A stretch of DNA of 64,000 nucleotides from an uncultured Gemmatimonadales bacterium (lineage in GTDB: Bacteria > Gemmatimonadota > Gemmatimonadetes > Gemmatimonadales > Gemmatimonadaceae). This document shows positions 24,133-36,100 of the stretch, in pieces. How positions within the stretch are numbered: the stretch's first letter is position 1; every line of letters starts with the position of its first letter. A program made the position numbers. The DNA is taken from assembly GCA_963851265.1 (NCBI GenBank), contig CAWKNZ010000002.1, forward strand, positions 352,001 to 416,000, read 5' to 3'.

Positions 24133-27100
24133 GCGGTCGACCTTCACGTTGACGTAGAGCTCGTTCATGAGGCGCGCGGTGTCGGCGTCCTCGAACGACT
24201 CGCGCTCCATGACGTGGCACCAGTGACACGCGGCGTAGCCGACGCTGAGCAGGACGGGCCTGTCCTCGGCGCGGGCGCGGGCGAAGGCCTCGTCCCCCCA
24301 CGGATACCAGTCGACCGGGTTGTGGGCGTGTTGCAGGAGGTAGGGGCTGGTCTCGGCGGCGAGGCGGTTCGGCATACGGTGCAACTATTTGGGCGGTGTG
24401 GCGTGCTGCGTCGCGGCCCGGATTTAGGTTGGGCGCATGCGAAACCTAGTGTGGGCCGAGGTGGGGCTCGTGGCCGCGGGCGGGGCGCTCGGGTGCGTGT
24501 CGCGGTACGTCGCGGCGCTCGCGGCGGGCCCGGTGTCGGCGGGGTTTCCGTGGGGGACGTTCGCGATCAACGTCGTCGGGTCGTTCGTGCTCGGCGCGCT
24601 GCTCGGCGGGCTGCCGCCGGGGCACGCGGGGCGGTTGCTGTTCGGGACCGGATTCTGCGGCGGGTTCACGACGTTCTCGACGTTCAGTACGGAGGTCGTC
24701 GGGCTCGTCGAGCGCGGGGCGTGGGGGCGGGCCGGGGTGTACGCGGGCGGGAGCGTGCTGGCCGGCGTGCTGGCGGCGGCAGCCGGAATCGCGGTGGGGC
24801 GGGTGGTGGTGACGCGGTAGCGCTGATGCCGGGGCGGGCGGAGCCGCTGCGCGTCTCCTCGCTGCGATCGAGCGCGCCTGCGAGGGCGCCCGCCGCCCGC
24901 CGGCTCAGGGGTGCGTGTTAGGCAGCCGCGGCGCGCAGTGCGGCCGCGGCGTGCGGTGCGGCCGCGACGACTTCGGCGGGGGCGGTGGTGCGGGCGCGGG
25001 CGGCTTCGGTTCGGGCGAGTTCGGTGAGGGCGTCGCGCATCGCGGATTCGCCGCCGAACTGGAAGCCGAGTTGCGAGGCGTAGGCGGCGCACGCGTCGAG
25101 CTTGGCGGCGAAGGCCGCCTCCGTGGGGTGGAGGGCGACGTCGACGAGATCGTGGGCGATAGGGTCGGGCGGAAGGGCGCCGGGGTGGCGGATGACGTAC
25201 GGGGTGTCGCGGTACCATGCCGTGGCGAGGGGGCGGCCGGCGGCGGCGCGGGTGTGCGCGATCTCGCGCACCGCGCGGACGACGTGCCGGTGGTCGGCGT
25301 GGCCGCCGATGGCCTGGGGAGCGAAGACGAGGGCGGGGGCGAGTTCGTCGACGAGCGCGGCGACGTCGGCTGCGACGGCGCGCCACGCGTCGGCGTCGGC
25401 GGGATGCACGCCGGCGAAGAGGGCGGCGGCGGAGTGGTAGCCGCGGTGCGGGGCCTCGGCGTGCGCGAGCCAGCGGACGGAGGCAGCGCCTAACGCACGC
25501 GCCGCCTCGGCGTCCTCGGCGCGGCGGAGGGCCATGTAGTCGACGTCGGCACCGAGGCCCTTGTCGGTCTGGCAGGCGAGGGCGAAGCCCCGCGGATCGG
25601 GGATGGAGCGGGTGAAGACGGTGACGAGGTGCGCGTCCCAGCCGCCCGCGGCGAGCGCGGCGAACGCGGCGCCGCAACTGAACGCGACGTCGTCGAGGTG
25701 CGGCGAGAGGAAGAGTGCGTTGGGCACGGCGGGCGGCGCGCTCAGAGTAGGTGCGGGGCGGCGCGGAAGCGGCAGGGGTCGATGGCGTCGTCGAACGGCC
25801 ACCACCGGTCGGGGCCGCGGTAGTCGCGCACGACCCGTGCGTACTCGCCGACGATCTGCCGCGCGATGGCGGGCCACGAATAGGTGGCGCGCACCTCCGC
25901 GAGGGCGGCGGCGGCGAGGCGCGCGCGGAGTGGGGCGTCGTCGAGGATGCGCGCGAGGGCGGCCGTGAGGGCGGGCACGTCGCCCGGGCCGACGAGCAAG
26001 CCGTTCTCGCCGTCGCGCAGACAGTCGACCACGCCCACGGTGCGGGTGCTGACGACGGCGAGTCCACTCGCCATCGCTTCGAGGATGGTGTTGCTGAACC
26101 CCTCGGCGTAGGTCGGGGAGACGAATACGTCGCCGCCGTGGTAGACGCGCGGCACGTCGTCGTACGCCGCGGGGCCGCGGAGCGTAACGCGGTCGGTGAG
26201 GCCGAGTTCGCGCGTGCGCTCGGCGACGGCGGCGGAGTCGGGGCCGATACCCGAGACGACGAGGCGCGCGGGGCGGCCGCCGCACGTCAGGGCGGCGAAT
26301 GCATCGAGCAGGTCGAGCGCGCCCTTGCGACGGTCGACGCGGCCGTGGTACACGAGCCGCGGCTCGTCGGGGTCGACGAGGGCGCCGGGGGTCCAGCCCC
26401 CGCGCGGGGTGAAGCGGGTGACGTCGACCGCACCGGGAACGATGGTGAGGCGGTCGAGCGCGACGCCGAGGTTGGCGTGCACCTCCTCGGCGAAGGAGCG
26501 GGCGCCGATGAGGAGGGCGTCGGCGTGGGCGAGGACGGCCTGCATGGCGCGGCGGTGGGTGCCGCAGCAGAGGCCGACCCAGTGCCCGTCGCCGCCCTGG
26601 ATGCTCACCACGACGGGGAGGCCGAGGCGGCGACCGGCTTCGAGGGCGGCGAAGCCGTTGGGGTAGCCGTACTGGGCGTGGAGGAGGTCGAAGGGGCGCT
26701 CGGCGTGGAGCCGCTCGACGAGGGCGACGCGGGTGTGGAGGTCGCGCTCGAAGTCGGCGGCGGCGCCGGCCGTCGCGGCGGCCTCGCCCGCGCTCTCGAC
26801 GCCGACCACGCGCACGCCGGCGACGGCCGGGGGCGGCCCGCCGCCGTAGACGGCGGTGCCGGCGGCGTCGGCGCGATAGTCGGAGAGCATGGTCACGTCA
26901 TGGCCTAACGCGACGAGCTCCCGCAGGAGGTTGGCGGCGTAGACGCTCATCCCCGAGACCGCGGGGAAGAAGCGGCGGGAGAGGAAGCAGACGCGCATCA
27001 GCCGCCGCGCTCGGCGGCTCTCAGGTACGCCAGCGCCCGCGGGACCATCTCGTGCGCGCGGTGCGAGTCGCGGGACAGCTCGACGGTGACCAGCCGGTCG

Positions 27101-33100: not shown

Positions 33101-36100
33101 CGCAGCGCGGGGGCGATCACGGTCTTCACGAACGTCTGACCGGTCTTGCCGTCCTTGCCGATGACGGGCACGCCGCGCTGCTCGGCCAGCTCCACGAGCG
33201 CGGGGACGTCGACGGCCACGCTCGGCGTGAAGTTGCCGTAGGGCACGCCCTCGCGGATGGCGGCGTACGCGTAGAGCACCGCGGGGTTGAGTGCGTCATC
33301 GTCGCGGTCGAGCGCGGCCTCGAAGCCGGCGGCCGTGGCGAAGGCGGGCGCGGTGACGTCGGGGCGGGCCTCGGTGGAGGCGAGGTTGATCATCACGACA
33401 TCGTCGAGCTGCTGCTCGGCGCGGAAGCGGCACAGGTCGGCGCGGATCGCGTCGACCGCCGCGCGGGCGGTGCCGGCGTCGACGCGGTGGCCGAAGCGGT
33501 CGCCGTCGATGTTGCGGCAGTACTTGGTGGAGCCGACGGCGGGCCACGGGCGGAGCGCGGCCAGGGCGTCGCGCGCGGCGTCGAGTTGGTCGCGGTCGAG
33601 GACGCGGTGCGTGGCCGCGGCGGTGGCGAGGTCGGACCCGTCGAGGTCCCAGCCGCCGAACGCGAGGTCTGCGTACGGCGCGAGCTGCGCCGTGAGGGCG
33701 TCGGGGAGGGCGGCCAGGGGCAGTCCGGTGGTGCCCGCGGCGCCGGCCCCGAGTAGCGCGATGCCGGCCACGGCGGTGGTCGCGACCGCGCCGCCGAGCC
33801 CTACGATCGCGATGCCGAGGCGCCCGGGCCGGCGTGCGCCCACCGGCGCGCCGTGATTGCTGCTGTCAGTTGCCGTACCACGCGCCGTGCTACGGTGTGC
33901 CGTACTACGGTCCTGCGGGTGCGTTCCGTTCTGCATGTCCTCCTCCTCCTCCGCGTCCCCACCCGGCCGCGCGCGCCGCCCGTTCGACGGCGCGGGGCGG
34001 GTCGAATGGACGGTACGCGGGCAGCGGTCGGCCACTCCGATCGCCGTGGCGGGGGGGTAGCAAGGCACGTTCCGCCATCGCCCCGCGCCGTGTAGCGTAC
34101 GGCGTTCTTCCCGTGGTTTTTATTGCGTGCCGCCCCGCGGGAACCGTTGGCGGCGTCGACGACATTCTCCCTTCTGCCCGCGTTCTCGTGACCGATCTCA
34201 CGGCGTATTTCGACGCGCACGCCGAGCGTGCGCGCGCCGAGCTGTTCGATTTCCTGCGCATCCCGAGCGTGAGCGCGCGCTCCGAGCACGATGCCGACAC
34301 TCGGCGCGCGGCCGAGTGGGTGCGCGCGTCGCTCGAGTCCGCCGGGCTGCAGGCTTCGGTGCACGAGACGGCGGGCCACCCGATCGTGCTCGGCGAGTGG
34401 CGCGGCGCGGCGGGCGCGCCGACGCTGCTCGTCTACGGCCACTACGACGTGCAGCCGGCCGAGCCGCTCGAGCTGTGGGACTCGCCCGCGTTCGAACCCG
34501 CGGTGCGCGACGGGCGCATCTATGCGCGCGGATCGGTGGACGACAAGGGGCAGCTGTTTCTCCACGTGAAGGCGCTCGAGGCGCATCTGGCCGCGACCGG
34601 CGCGCTGCCGGTGAACGTGATCGTGCTGGCCGAGGGCGAGGAGGAGGTGGGGAGCGAGCACCTCGCCGAGTTCATCCGCGCGCACGCCGATCGGCTCGCG
34701 TGCGACGCGGTGGTGATCTCCGACTCGACGATGTTCGCGCCGGGCATTCCCAGCATCCTCAGCTCGTTGCGCGGGCTGGCGTACTTCCAACTCGACGTCC
34801 AGGGGCCGAGCGGCGACCTGCATTCGGGGATGTACGGCGGGGCCGTGGTGAACCCGGCGATGGCGCTCGCGCGCATCCTCGCCACGTTCCACGACGCCGA
34901 CGGGCGGATCGCGATCCCGGGCTTCTACGATGCGGTGCGCGCCTGGCCGGCGTCGGTGCGCGAGCAGATGCGCGGGCTGCCGTTCGACGAAGGCGAGTTC
35001 CGCGCCGGCGTGGGCGCTCCGGCGTTAGGCGGCGAGCCGGGCTACTCGGTGCTCGAGCGGCTCTGGACGCGGCCGACGTGCGAGGTGAACGGGCTGCTGT
35101 CGGGGTACACGGGCGAGGGCGCCAAGACGGTGCTGCCGGCCACGGCGATGGCGAAGGTCAGCTGCCGCCTGGTGCCCGACCAGGACCCGGAGGAGATCGC
35201 GCGGTTGGTGCAGGCGCACGTGGAGCGGGTCGCGCCGGCGGGGGTGACGGTCGCCGTGCGGCACCTGCACGGCGGTCGGCCGTGGCGGGCGGATCTGGAG
35301 GGGCCCCTGTTCGACGCGGCGAAGCGTGCGCTCGCGGCGGAGTTCGGGCGCGAGCCGGTGGTGACCGGCGAGGGCGGGTCGATCCCGGTGGTCGGCGACT
35401 TCGCGGAGATCCTCGGCGCGCCGGTGTTACTCGTGGGGTTCGGGCTGCCGGGCGAGAACGCGCACGCGCCTAACGAGTGGATCTCGGTGGAGAACTTCGA
35501 GAAGGGGATGCGGGCGATGGCGCGGCTGTATACCGAATACGGGCGGTGACGCTTCCCGAAAACGGCACGGGGTCGCGCGCGCGGCCCCGTGCCCGTCGGT
35601 CAGCTCCGCCGGTCGATCCGGCGCGCCGGTCGATTCAACGCGCCGCCTTGCGGCTGAACGTCCCGAACACCAGATCCCACAACGGCGAACTCACGCCGTA
35701 GTCCTCGTCGGCGTCGACGTAGTGGTGCCGCGCGTGACGCTTCTTGAGGTAGCGCCCCCAGCGCGTCGGCAGCCCCTGGTGGTGCACGGCGTAGTGGATC
35801 GTGTCGTAGAACAGGTAGCCCGTCACGAACCCCGCGAACGCCCCGAGCTCGGCCGCGCCGAAGATGAGGCGGAACAGCGCGAAGAAGAGGATCGCGAGCG
35901 GGATGCTCGCGCCCGGCGGCATCACGAGACGCGTCGGCTCGCTCGGCGCGACGTGATGCACGCCGTGACCGACGAAGTAGGCGAGGTGCTTCCACGACGG
36001 CATGCGCGGGATCGCCGCGTCGCCGGGGGCGAGCGACTCGACCACCGCGTGCGTCTCGTTCATGATGTCGTCCGGCCAGTGAAAGACGAACCGGTGCATC

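What a model noticed while it worked through the whole genome (the two positions that open the first line are those of the whole stretch)
24918..33936. YcaO in a peptide-free inositol-aminosugar gene cassette shared with Acetobacteraceae
Eight co-directional, tightly packed genes (g00550-g00543) encode inositol-1-phosphate synthase, an HD phosphohydrolase, a Gfo/Idh/MocA oxidoreductase, a zinc-ribbon metallo-beta-lactamase-fold protein, a 509-aa YcaO, a sugar isomerase/epimerase-fold protein, an MshA-like GT4 glycosyltransferase and a PIG-L (MshB/NeoL-like) deacetylase, with no small precursor-peptide gene. I read it as a pathway to a GlcN-inositol pseudodisaccharide in which the ATP-dependent amide-activating enzyme YcaO works on a small-molecule amide (such as the acetamido group) rather than on a ribosomal peptide. 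New: a first candidate for a non-peptide YcaO substrate and an unknown aminocyclitol-type metabolite.
Evidence so far: Gene table and Swiss-Prot best hits: g00544 31% to MshA, g00543 41% to 2'-N-acetylparomamine deacetylase, g00550 40% to inositol-3-phosphate synthase; g00546 Pfam YcaO E 1e-61, no ThiF/E1, TfuA, SagB or leader-peptide gene nearby. YcaO homologue (E<=1e-60) in 1 of 120 other Gemmatimonadaceae genomes, same genus. genome_contigs scan: 6 loci; in two Acetobacteraceae MAG contigs (L155, L157) all eight genes recur in the same order at 35-64% identity, with one extra SAM methyltransferase gene. Literature search YcaO+inositol+glycosyltransferase+gene cluster: 5 papers, none on such a cluster by title or abstract.
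(Added by a program. Inside this text positions count along the whole contig: contig position 352,001 is position 1 of the stretch shown here. "Call 12" and the like, gene names such as g00115 and contig names such as C1 are that model's own, and its searches are not shown. The text may have been shortened before it was handed on; [...] marks where a part breaks off. The agent that wrote the report below was given it as the finding of a first reader that could run no searches.)

Follow-up and report, generated by a model that had tools for sequence, protein, structure and literature searches.

The report
Peptide-free YcaO in cyclitol-aminosugar operon
Eight tightly packed genes that should build an amino-sugar attached to an inositol ring include a YcaO enzyme, a type so far known only to modify peptides and proteins, and the same gene set recurs in distantly related soil, leaf and air bacteria with no peptide gene beside it.

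Summary
Window 24918-33936 (minus strand) carries eight intact genes with gaps of -1 to 41 bp: inositol-phosphate synthase, HD-like protein, Gfo/Idh/MocA oxidoreductase, zinc-ribbon MBL-fold protein, YcaO, TIM-barrel isomerase/dehydratase-like protein, GT4 glycosyltransferase and PIG-L deacetylase. There is no room for a precursor gene, no E1/ThiF partner and no TfuA.

Of 79 metagenome loci, 12 carry all eight families, 14 lack only the MBL gene, and 58 have YcaO beside at least one partner. It also lies on replicons of cultured Roseomonas, Methylobacterium and Hymenobacter.

Three new points link YcaO to the sugar chemistry:
- The MBL-like protein is fused to YcaO in other organisms.
- One variant replaces the inositol synthase with a dehydroquinate-synthase-like cyclase and drops the TIM gene.
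- The same genome holds a separate, canonical ThiF-YcaO.

Best reading (about 0.6): a hexosaminyl-cyclitol small-molecule pathway in which YcaO activates a non-ribosomal carbonyl with ATP. The exact substrate and the product are guesses. The "HD phosphohydrolase" label is doubtful, because the HD dyad is HH. I found no paper describing such a cluster.

The parts
32479..33936 (-). myo-inositol-1-phosphate synthase (485 aa), first gene of the operon; ATG preceded by GGAGGAGGAGGAGGAC
   Evidence: Pfam PF07994 1.7e-58 and PF01658 3.6e-32. Ribosome-binding site read. Conserved at 57-89% in related loci.
31435..32472 (-). HD_3-like protein (345 aa) with a helical N-terminal half of unknown kind; the HD dyad is replaced by HH (H225 H226)
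   Evidence: Pfam HD_3 26.8 bits against a cut-off of 22.5. No PDB sequence hit at E<=1. Model pLDDT 90.8. Foldseek gives only weak matches, E 0.1-0.5, to HD_3 proteins 1xx7, 4dmb and 2par. Invariant residues Q172-G176, E191, H196, H225, H226, N229, D234, D292 and D295 in 28 of 28 sequences.
30341..31426 (-). Gfo/Idh/MocA NAD(P) oxidoreductase (361 aa)
   Evidence: Pfam PF01408 3.2e-26 and PF22725 8.7e-28. The closest solved structures are 1,5-anhydro-D-fructose reductase (1.2e-36), with glycoside 3-dehydrogenases and inositol 2-dehydrogenase further down the list. All NCBIfam hits are below their cut-offs.
29418..30341 (-). zinc-ribbon plus MBL-fold protein (307 aa), partner of YcaO and fused to it in other organisms
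   Evidence: C8, C11, C23, C26 are conserved. S114-H115-x-H117 stands in place of HxHxDH. H170, D196 and H214 are invariant in 28 of 28 sequences. AF2 pLDDT 91.4. Foldseek probability 1.0 to MBL structures, top hit 2p97. Aligns over its full length to the N-termini of the fused proteins P0017 (66% identity, 1e-125) and P0041 (45%, 6e-86).
27847..29376 (-). YcaO (509 aa from the GTG at 29376; the database copy P0001 has 511 aa, so the start may lie two codons upstream)
   Evidence: Pfam YcaO 5.4e-61. TIGR03604 119.8 bits < 219.25 and TIGR03266 86.7 < 365. Nearest solved structure is the methanogen YcaO MJ1094, 5.5e-13. Family invariants include E70, E73, E179, Q182, R183, E276 and the C-terminal motif Y478..Y481-R-E-P..H487.
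26998..27843 (-). xylose-isomerase-like TIM barrel (281 aa): isomerase, epimerase or dehydratase-like
   Evidence: Pfam AP_endonuc_2 1e-38. Weak matches to IolE (2.7e-06) and L-ribulose 3-epimerase (3.2e-06) among solved structures. Weak NCBIfam hits to CbiR and IolE.
25742..26998 (-). GT4 retaining glycosyltransferase (418 aa) of the MshA/BshA/sucrose-phosphate-synthase type
   Evidence: Pfam PF13692 5.2e-34, PF00534, PF13579. Solved relatives are Tll1590, MshA (7qsg, 3c4q) and BshA (5d00) at 1e-19 to 1e-21. All NCBIfam equivalogs are below cut-off; MshA scores 95.3 < 462.5.
24918..25727 (-). PIG-L family N-acetylhexosaminide deacetylase (269 aa from the GTG at 25727)
   Evidence: Pfam PIG-L 4.3e-18. 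Closest solved structures are the teicoplanin pseudoaglycone GlcNAc deacetylases Orf2*/Dbv21, 1e-14. The motifs P-H-L-D-D and H-A-D-H are conserved across 39 sequences.

Best explanation
The eight genes form one biosynthetic operon for a small molecule built from a carbocyclic sugar alcohol (a cyclitol, here inositol) and an amino sugar. The YcaO works on this non-ribosomal substrate, not on a peptide.

Proposed steps:
1. The synthase makes inositol phosphate from glucose 6-phosphate. This follows from the established function of the family.
2. The GT4 enzyme attaches an N-acetylhexosamine to the cyclitol, and the PIG-L enzyme removes the acetyl group to free the amine. This is inferred by analogy to MshA/MshB and to the paromamine steps.
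3. The Gfo/Idh/MocA enzyme oxidises a ring hydroxyl, and the TIM-barrel enzyme isomerises or dehydrates the resulting ketone. This is inferred by analogy to IolG/IolE.
4. The YcaO, helped by the zinc-ribbon MBL-fold partner, uses ATP to phosphorylate a carbonyl oxygen of the intermediate. The carbonyl would be an amide or a vinylogous amide, for example one formed between the freed amine and the oxidised ring. A nitrogen, oxygen or sulfur nucleophile then replaces the oxygen, giving an amidine, cyclic imidate or thioamide. This step is inferred from the one chemistry known for YcaO enzymes; the substrate is a guess.

The role of the HD-like protein is open.
For: - Operon anatomy: eight intact co-directional genes with gaps of -1 to 41 bp, which leaves no room for a precursor gene.
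- Conservation: of 79 metagenome loci found with a YcaO profile, 12 carry all eight families on one strand, 14 carry seven (all lacking only MBL), 39 carry five or more, and 58 carry YcaO plus at least one partner.
- Named records: the cluster is also on replicons of Roseomonas haemaphysalidis, Methylobacterium aquaticum and Hymenobacter volaticus, in an Acetobacteraceae MAG and in Gemmatimonadales.
- Fusions: 15 of the 120 listed YcaO homologues are 757-865 aa long. All 4 that I read start with the zinc-ribbon MBL-like domain. Fused forms are also among the top hits of the MBL profile.
- Cyclase swap: in 4 loci (L015, L017, L028, L041) a dehydroquinate-synthase-family cyclase lies directly upstream of the HD-like gene. 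It scores about 545 bits on NF004852 and is below the aroB cut-off. These loci have no MIPS hit and no TIM gene.
- No conserved small ORF across clades: 1321 small ORFs in 63 loci were examined, and the recurrent ones lie inside the methyltransferase or GT2 genes of closely related loci.
- No TfuA in the genome, which is 94% complete. No E1/ThiF next to this YcaO.
- Contrast within the genome: its other YcaO is a ThiF-YcaO fusion of 814 aa on another contig, and shows no similarity to the window YcaO at E<1e-4.
- The YcaO keeps four acidic residues that align with those of the solved methanogen enzyme.
Against: - No chemistry, metabolite or expression data exist for any member.
- Every characterised YcaO acts on a peptide or protein (recalled knowledge).
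- After deacetylation the expected GlcN-cyclitol has no amide, so the substrate has to be postulated.
- One acidic position of the usual ExxE pair is an invariant glutamine (Q182), so catalysis may differ from known YcaOs.
- 21 of the 79 metagenome loci show only YcaO. About 12 of these have several kb of flank with none of the other seven genes. The named Streptomyces and Rubrobacter homologues are closest to these solitary forms. The enzyme clade therefore does not always need the cassette in cis.
- The MBL gene is missing beside YcaO in 16 cluster-embedded cases, and was not found on the 1.57 Mb Methylobacterium replicon.
- A protein substrate, including one of the cluster's own enzymes, is not excluded.
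Confidence: 0.6

Rival explanations
1. The YcaO, with the MBL-like partner, modifies a protein or a ribosomal peptide encoded elsewhere, or one of the operon's own enzymes. The sugar genes would then be co-regulated or would depend on that modification.
For: All characterised YcaOs act on peptides or proteins (recalled). The nearest solved relatives by sequence are the methanogen enzymes that thioamidate McrA, a protein encoded away from the ycaO gene (function recalled, and the NCBIfam name appears). Solitary members of the clade exist without the cassette. The genome has Frankia_peptide-like ORFs on another contig, at weak scores below cut-off.
Against: Eight-gene synteny is kept across three phyla at 38-73% identity. 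There is translational coupling, and a fusion to the MBL partner, but no E1, RRE or TfuA. No conserved small ORF was found. The Frankia-like ORFs lie beside the genome's other, ThiF-fused YcaO. Even the solitary forms sit next to GT2 and sugar ABC-transporter genes.
Confidence: 0.2
2. One reading: YcaO activates the acetamido group of GlcNAc-inositol, making an acetamidine, thioacetamide or sugar oxazoline.
For: GlcNAc-cyclitol is the only amide that the family names predict directly. Cyclodehydration to an oxazoline, or amidine formation, would be canonical YcaO chemistry (recalled).
Against: A PIG-L deacetylase with intact catalytic motifs is adjacent to the GT4 gene in every locus where both genes were recovered, across all four cluster variants. 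It would remove that amide. This version gives no role to the oxidoreductase/TIM pair or to the cyclase swap.
Confidence: 0.12
3. YcaO acts here as a kinase or ligase on a group that is not an amide, such as a hydroxyl, enol or carboxylate. One example would be joining an acid to the free amine, in the way MshC does in mycothiol synthesis.
For: ATP-binding residues are partly altered (Q182 in place of Glu). The genome has no MshC above cut-off (270.8 < 485.1), so a GlcN-inositol would have no known ligase.
Against: No YcaO is known to do this (recalled). No amino-acid or acyl-supplying gene is in the operon.
Confidence: 0.08

Closest known systems
Mycothiol early steps (inositol-phosphate synthase, MshA GT4, MshA2 phosphatase, MshB PIG-L deacetylase)
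   Same: The same three enzyme families in the same logic: a cyclitol phosphate, then N-acetylhexosamine transfer, then deacetylation to a free amine.
   Different: All equivalog scores are far below cut-off: MshA 95.3 < 462.5 and INO1 38.1 < 638. No MshC above cut-off in the genome, and no MshD-like acetyltransferase among the eight operon genes (the rest of the genome was not searched for MshD). The host phylum is different. The operon adds oxidoreductase, TIM barrel, MBL and YcaO.
Paromamine steps of 2-deoxystreptamine aminoglycosides (DHQS-like cyclase, GT4 BtrM/NeoD, PIG-L BtrD/NeoL; names recalled)
   Same: Cyclitol plus GlcNAc transfer plus PIG-L deacetylation. The variant loci even use a DHQS-family cyclase. 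The closest solved PIG-L relatives deacetylate GlcNAc on an aglycone.
   Different: There is no aminotransferase among the eight genes. In the window the cyclase is MIPS. YcaO and MBL have no counterpart in that pathway.
Amidine-, azoline- and thioamide-forming YcaO enzymes of RiPP pathways and of methanogens (BotCD, KlpD, LynD/TruD, McrA-YcaO; functions recalled)
   Same: YcaO domain at 5.4e-61. Acidic residues align with MJ1094. The ATP-dependent carbonyl activation is the chemistry proposed here.
   Different: No precursor gene, E1/RRE partner or TfuA. The partner is a new zinc-ribbon MBL fold. The C-terminus ends in an invariant YREPxxH motif and Q182 is a family-specific change. All neighbouring genes are sugar or cyclitol enzymes.
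Mycosporine-like amino acid pathway (DHQS-like cyclase, O-methyltransferase, ATP-grasp and D-Ala-ligase-like C-N ligases; recalled)
   Same: It works alike only in outline. A sugar-phosphate cyclase feeds the pathway. A methyltransferase is present in 28 related loci. There are one or two ATP-dependent enzymes that could replace a carbonyl oxygen by nitrogen, since two YcaO paralogues occur in some loci. The hosts come from sun-exposed niches.
   Different: None of the defining enzymes is present in the window. No chromophore is known. This is an analogy, not membership.

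Membership tests
YcaO superfamily (PF02624) | YcaO domain above Pfam gathering score | tested here: met
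   207.1 bits against a cut-off of 25.7, covering residues 55-406.
YcaO superfamily (PF02624) | Acidic ATP/Mg-binding residues (which residues bind is recalled) | tested here: inconclusive
   E70, E73, E179 and E276 align with Glu residues of MJ1094 and are invariant in 20 of 20 family members. The position of the second Glu of the ExxE pair is an invariant Q182.
Azoline-forming TOMM cyclodehydratase (SagD type) | Score above the TIGR03604 cut-off | tested here: not met
   119.8 < 219.25 bits.
Azoline-forming TOMM cyclodehydratase (SagD type) | E1-like/ThiF or RRE partner, fused or adjacent | tested here: not met
   None among the eight genes or the flanks. The genome's other YcaO does carry a ThiF domain.
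Azoline-forming TOMM cyclodehydratase (SagD type) | Precursor peptide gene nearby | tested here: not met
   Intergenic gaps are -1 to 41 bp. No small-ORF family is shared between the window and other clades among 1321 small ORFs of 63 loci.
TfuA-dependent thioamidating YcaO | TfuA gene present | tested here: not met
   PF07812 gave no match in the 94%-complete genome; the positive control matched in Methanosarcina.
TfuA-dependent thioamidating YcaO | methan_mark_1 equivalog score | tested here: not met
   86.7 < 365 bits.
Mycothiol biosynthesis | MshA and INO1 equivalogs | tested here: not met
   MshA 95.3 < 462.5 and INO1 38.1 < 638.
Mycothiol biosynthesis | MshC cysteine ligase in the genome | tested here: not met
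   The best hit scores 270.8 < 485.1 bits, the kind of below-cut-off match that all 14 control genomes also give.
Metallo-beta-lactamase superfamily | alpha-beta/beta-alpha MBL fold | tested here: met
   Model pLDDT 91.4, pTM 0.90. Foldseek returned at least 500 PDB matches at E<=0.001, all MBL-type among those listed.
Metallo-beta-lactamase superfamily | HxHxDH metal motif | tested here: not met
   The motif is S-H-x-H-x-Y/F/M-G. The Asp and His positions are lost, with Gly120 invariant at the His position and mostly Tyr at the Asp position, while H170, D196 and H214 are invariant (28 sequences).
HD phosphohydrolase (HD_3/YfbR type) | Pfam HD_3 above cut-off | tested here: met
   26.8 bits against 22.5, only just above the cut-off. 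Foldseek matches to 1xx7, 4dmb and 2par are weak, E 0.1-0.5.
HD phosphohydrolase (HD_3/YfbR type) | His-Asp dyad | tested here: not met
   H225-H226 in 28 of 28 sequences. By my reading against YfbR (recalled), the position of the catalytic Glu is N229.
2-deoxystreptamine aminoglycoside pathway | DOI synthase plus aminotransferases | tested here: not met
   No aminotransferase or DHQS-like gene is among the eight window genes. A DHQS-like cyclase occurs only in variant loci.
Mycosporine-like amino acid pathway | DDGS/EEVS cyclase, O-methyltransferase, ATP-grasp ligase | tested here: not met
   None is in the window operon. The methyltransferase and the DHQS-like cyclase are seen only in relatives.

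The most novel reading that the evidence does not exclude
This YcaO clade is the first YcaO with a small-molecule substrate. The operon and its variants would make a cyclitol-aminosugar enaminone or amidine, a mycosporine-like sunscreen or redox compound of sun-exposed bacteria. YcaO, one copy per C-N bond, would play the part that ATP-grasp ligases play in mycosporine synthesis.

A lead worth testing is methylobamine, a UVA-absorbing compound of Methylobacterium. It is described in a review passage as holding a galactopyranose, a pyranooxazine and an iminoacetic acid part. A cluster of this kind could make it or a relative. Against this, that passage reports a linear five-carbon unit, not a six-carbon ring.
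Probability: 0.15. Interest if true: 0.9.

Novelty: new variant of a known kind. Interest (0 to 1): 0.8.

Why it matters
- YcaO enzymes are a defining tool of ribosomal peptide natural products, and genome-mining programs read them as peptide markers. A clade working on a sugar-cyclitol substrate would widen the known reach of ATP-dependent amide activation and would correct automatic "RiPP" calls for these loci.
- It would point to an unknown metabolite made by Gemmatimonadota, Acetobacteraceae, Methylobacterium and Hymenobacter, bacteria typical of leaf surfaces, air and soil.
- The question is directly testable, because complete clusters sit in cultured strains (Roseomonas haemaphysalidis 546, Methylobacterium aquaticum MA-22A).
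- The MBL-YcaO pair and the MIPS/DHQS-like swap give clear handles for enzymology.

Tried and rejected
- Complex prediction of YcaO (A1) with the MBL-like protein (A2): no verdict, ipSAE 0.00 in two runs, controls not run.
- The look-up of sequencing runs on the whole operon: none was listed, and no RNA holder was listed.
- Sigma-70 promoter scan of 24300-34400: 0 sites. One terminator-like site was found, no more than in shuffles.
- Rfam scan of 20000-38000: only one match, below the gathering score.
- The search for homologous proteins with lengths 'longer' (892-2545 aa): nothing at E<=1e-20, which the tool itself rates as weak evidence.
- The search of earlier findings by sequence and by words: nothing.
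- In-frame stops reported inside several Acetobacteraceae YcaO matches turned out to be the natural stop codons, overrun by the alignment.
- The MBL-like profile was not found on the 1.57 Mb Methylobacterium replicon. Its chromosome was not searched.
- The subtype of the DHQS-like cyclase could not be assigned. DHQS scores 143 bits, EEVS (4p53) 124, DOIS 96 and DDGS (5tpr) 91.
- Literature searches, seen as listings only unless stated: YcaO+inositol, 16 papers, none on such a cluster by title or abstract start; YcaO+'beta-lactamase fold', 0; YcaO+mycothiol, 2; YcaO+lactamase+fusion, 7; YcaO+mycosporine, 1; YcaO+Methylobacterium, 1, whose passages I read and which mentions only a YcaO BGC in Roseomonas mucosa; YcaO+cyclitol, 0.
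- One search was badly posed and useless, because it did not require the word YcaO.
- The original methylobamine paper is not held. I saw only a review passage and reference lists.
- The genomic context of the Streptomyces and Rubrobacter homologues could not be fetched with the tools left.

Full report
**What is there.**
The window is about 75% G+C throughout, with no break at the region. I therefore chose open frames by third-position G+C and by homology. Eight intact genes lie head to tail on the minus strand:

| Gene | Coordinates |
|---|---|
| MIPS | 32479-33936 |
| HD-like | 31435-32472 |
| Gfo/Idh/MocA | 30341-31426 |
| zinc-ribbon MBL-like | 29418-30341 |
| YcaO | 27847-29376 |
| TIM barrel | 26998-27843 |
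| GT4 | 25742-26998 |
| PIG-L | 24918-25727 |

The gaps between neighbours are 6, 8, -1, 41, 3, -1 and 14 bp, so no further gene fits inside the operon. The first gene has a strong ribosome-binding site, GGAGGAGGAGGAGGAC, before its ATG. Upstream lies a divergent M20 peptidase. Downstream lie a convergent CrcB and then a DUF255 gene. Pfam and NCBIfam confirm the family names, but no NCBIfam equivalog cut-off is reached by any of the eight proteins.

**The individual proteins.**
- YcaO scores 5.4e-61 on Pfam. It falls below the SagD (119.8 < 219.25) and methanogen (86.7 < 365) models. Its nearest solved relative is MJ1094 at 5.5e-13.
- In an alignment of 20 family members, E70, E73, E179 and E276 are invariant and align with glutamates of MJ1094. 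One position of the usual acidic pair is an invariant Q182. The C-terminus ends in an invariant Y..YREP..H motif.
- The MBL-like protein has no Pfam hit. It folds with pLDDT 91.4 and matches MBL structures. It has four conserved cysteines (C8, C11, C23, C26), and H115, H117, H170, D196 and H214 are invariant. The Asp-His of HxHxDH is replaced: Gly120 is invariant at the His position, and the Asp position is mostly Tyr (28 sequences).
- The HD-like protein barely passes HD_3 (26.8 against 22.5 bits). It has no PDB sequence hit and only weak fold matches to HD_3 proteins. Its dyad is H225-H226 in 28 of 28 relatives. I therefore do not accept 'phosphohydrolase' as shown.
- GT4 is closest to MshA, BshA and a sucrose-phosphate-synthase-like enzyme.
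- PIG-L is closest to GlcNAc-aglycone deacetylases and keeps its metal and catalytic motifs.
- The oxidoreductase and the TIM barrel resemble sugar or inositol dehydrogenases and IolE/epimerases, but only loosely.

**How widespread it is.**
A Gemmatimonadales chromosome keeps the full synteny at 81-92% identity. An Acetobacteraceae MAG keeps all eight genes in order at 38-65%, with a methyltransferase inserted.
- A profile scan of metagenome contigs found 361 relatives, of which 79 loci were kept. Among these 79, 12 carry all eight families, 14 carry seven (each lacking only MBL), 39 carry five or more, 58 carry YcaO plus at least one partner, and 21 show YcaO alone. Nine of those 21 are contigs under 4 kb.
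- In the plasmid collection, 4 of 72,556 records match. Roseomonas haemaphysalidis p546-2 has the full set plus a methyltransferase and an overlapping MdoH-like GT2. Methylobacterium aquaticum pMaq22A_1p lacks the MBL gene beside YcaO. Hymenobacter volaticus has the oxidoreductase and GT4 each split into two segments. M. bullatum was not opened.
- The distribution is patchy. The YcaO occurs in 2 of 150 other genomes of the window's taxonomic family, both in its genus and none in 76 other genera. It occurs in 36 of 201 sampled Acetobacteraceae. This pattern fits horizontal spread.

**Three observations tie YcaO to the sugar chemistry.**
1. Fusions. Fifteen of the 120 listed homologues are 757-865 aa long, and four of them carry a precomputed Lactamase_B domain. 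The four I read all begin with the zinc-ribbon MBL-like domain in the same order as the two genes here. The window protein aligns end to end with two of them. Fused forms also head the MBL profile search, which returned 83 representatives at E<=1e-30.
2. A cyclase swap. In L015, L017, L028 and L041 the gene directly upstream of the HD-like gene is a dehydroquinate-synthase-family cyclase, overlapping it in L015. It scores about 545 bits on NF004852 and about 205-212 bits on aroB, below that model's cut-off of 305. These loci have no MIPS hit and no TIM gene. They add two SDRs and a second YcaO paralogue after PIG-L. Two unrelated carbocycle-forming enzymes in the same slot argue that the pathway is built on a cyclitol. 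Enzymes of that family release phosphate during cyclisation (established knowledge), so keeping the HD-like gene there argues against a simple inositol-phosphate phosphatase role.
3. An internal contrast. The genome has a second YcaO on another contig. It is fused to a ThiF/E1-like domain, has weak Frankia_peptide-like ORFs about 7.5 kb away, and shows no similarity to the window YcaO at E<1e-4. This organism therefore has a canonical peptide-type system elsewhere, of a different design.

**Search for a hidden peptide.**
Among 1321 small ORFs inside or within 1.5 kb of the clusters of 63 loci, the recurrent families all lie within the methyltransferase or GT2 genes of closely related loci. None includes the window or the other clades. 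TfuA is not found in the 94%-complete genome.

**What speaks against the small-molecule reading.**
- There are no data on chemistry or expression (one search listed no runs).
- After deacetylation the predicted GlcN-cyclitol has no amide, so a substrate has to be postulated.
- Solitary members of the clade exist with none of the other genes within several kb. The named Streptomyces and Rubrobacter homologues are nearest to these. In a quick tree they sit beside the second paralogues of some clusters (SH-aLRT only, careful search unfinished). They do lie next to GT2 and sugar ABC-transporter genes. One reading, untested, is that actinobacteria already make GlcN-inositol for mycothiol and need no cassette.
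- MBL is dispensable in cis in 16 cluster-embedded cases.

**Mechanism I commit to (confidence about 0.6 for a non-peptide substrate, about 0.25 for the details).**
1. MIPS makes the cyclitol phosphate.
2. GT4 and PIG-L install a hexosamine with a free amine.
3. The oxidoreductase and the TIM barrel create a ring carbonyl or enone.
4. YcaO with MBL phosphorylates a carbonyl oxygen of an amide or vinylogous amide and replaces it by N, O or S.

**Comparison with the known, and novelty.**
The operon shares logic with the early mycothiol steps and with the paromamine steps, but fails their membership tests. It shares chemistry, not context, with RiPP YcaOs. In outline it resembles mycosporine synthesis. 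A methyltransferase is present in 28 related loci, some loci have two YcaO paralogues, and the named hosts come from air, ticks and leaves.

One lead comes from a single review passage. Methylobacterium makes methylobamine, a UVA absorber with a galactopyranose, a pyranooxazine and an iminoacetic acid part. The five-carbon unit reported there does not obviously fit a six-carbon cyclitol, and I could not read the original paper.

I found no paper describing such a cluster in nine searches of the held library (and 55 for methylobamine). Subscription journals are largely missing from that library.

**Verdict.**
The finding is real, conserved and well beyond chance. I rate it a new variant of a known enzyme kind in an unexpected pathway, with high interest.

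Noticed in passing
own genome contig C8, locus L091:8992-11436 (+), and L091:747-1591 (-): A second YcaO of the genome is fused to a ThiF/E1-like domain (814 aa). About 7.5 kb away lie two ORFs with weak Frankia_peptide hits (24.6 and 20.7 bits, cut-off 48). This is possibly a canonical azoline-type peptide system.
   Followed up: partly
L087:13218-14780 and 27 metagenome loci (e.g. L024:14473-16617): In the proteobacterial versions an MdoH/OpgH-like membrane GT2 overlaps the end of the PIG-L gene. In many loci it is followed by DUF4864, beta-helix proteins, a GH42-like protein and a PNPOx-like protein. The product may be exported or joined to a glucan there. The window has none of these genes.
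   Followed up: partly
L004:2290-3783; L015:13542-14963: Second YcaO paralogues of the same clade lie beside the cluster: upstream in two Acetobacteraceae MAGs, and as the last gene in the DHQS-type variant. In a quick tree they group with the solitary YcaOs.
   Followed up: partly
L019, L021, L045, L076 (e.g. L076:11381-12433): Solitary YcaOs of this clade sit next to a GT2 glycosyltransferase family (6 loci). In one subgroup they also sit next to a sugar ABC transporter and a sortilin/BNR protein.
   Followed up: partly
L086:7042-8090 and 11311-12542 (Hymenobacter volaticus plasmid): The oxidoreductase and the GT4 gene each match in two adjacent segments. The oxidoreductase is annotated as two CDS and the GT4 is not listed. 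These are frameshifts or sequencing errors, so this copy may be decaying.
   Followed up: no
L004:3704-4033, 5712-5813, 8871-9017: A short repeated element, which translates to a recurring FFFEKK/LLLFLEKE-like string, is scattered in intergenic DNA of the Acetobacteraceae loci. It is probably a REP-like repeat.
   Followed up: no
window 24437-24820 (+): A CrcB fluoride-channel gene converges on the operon's end. No fluoride riboswitch was found at E<=0.1 in 20000-38000.
   Followed up: yes
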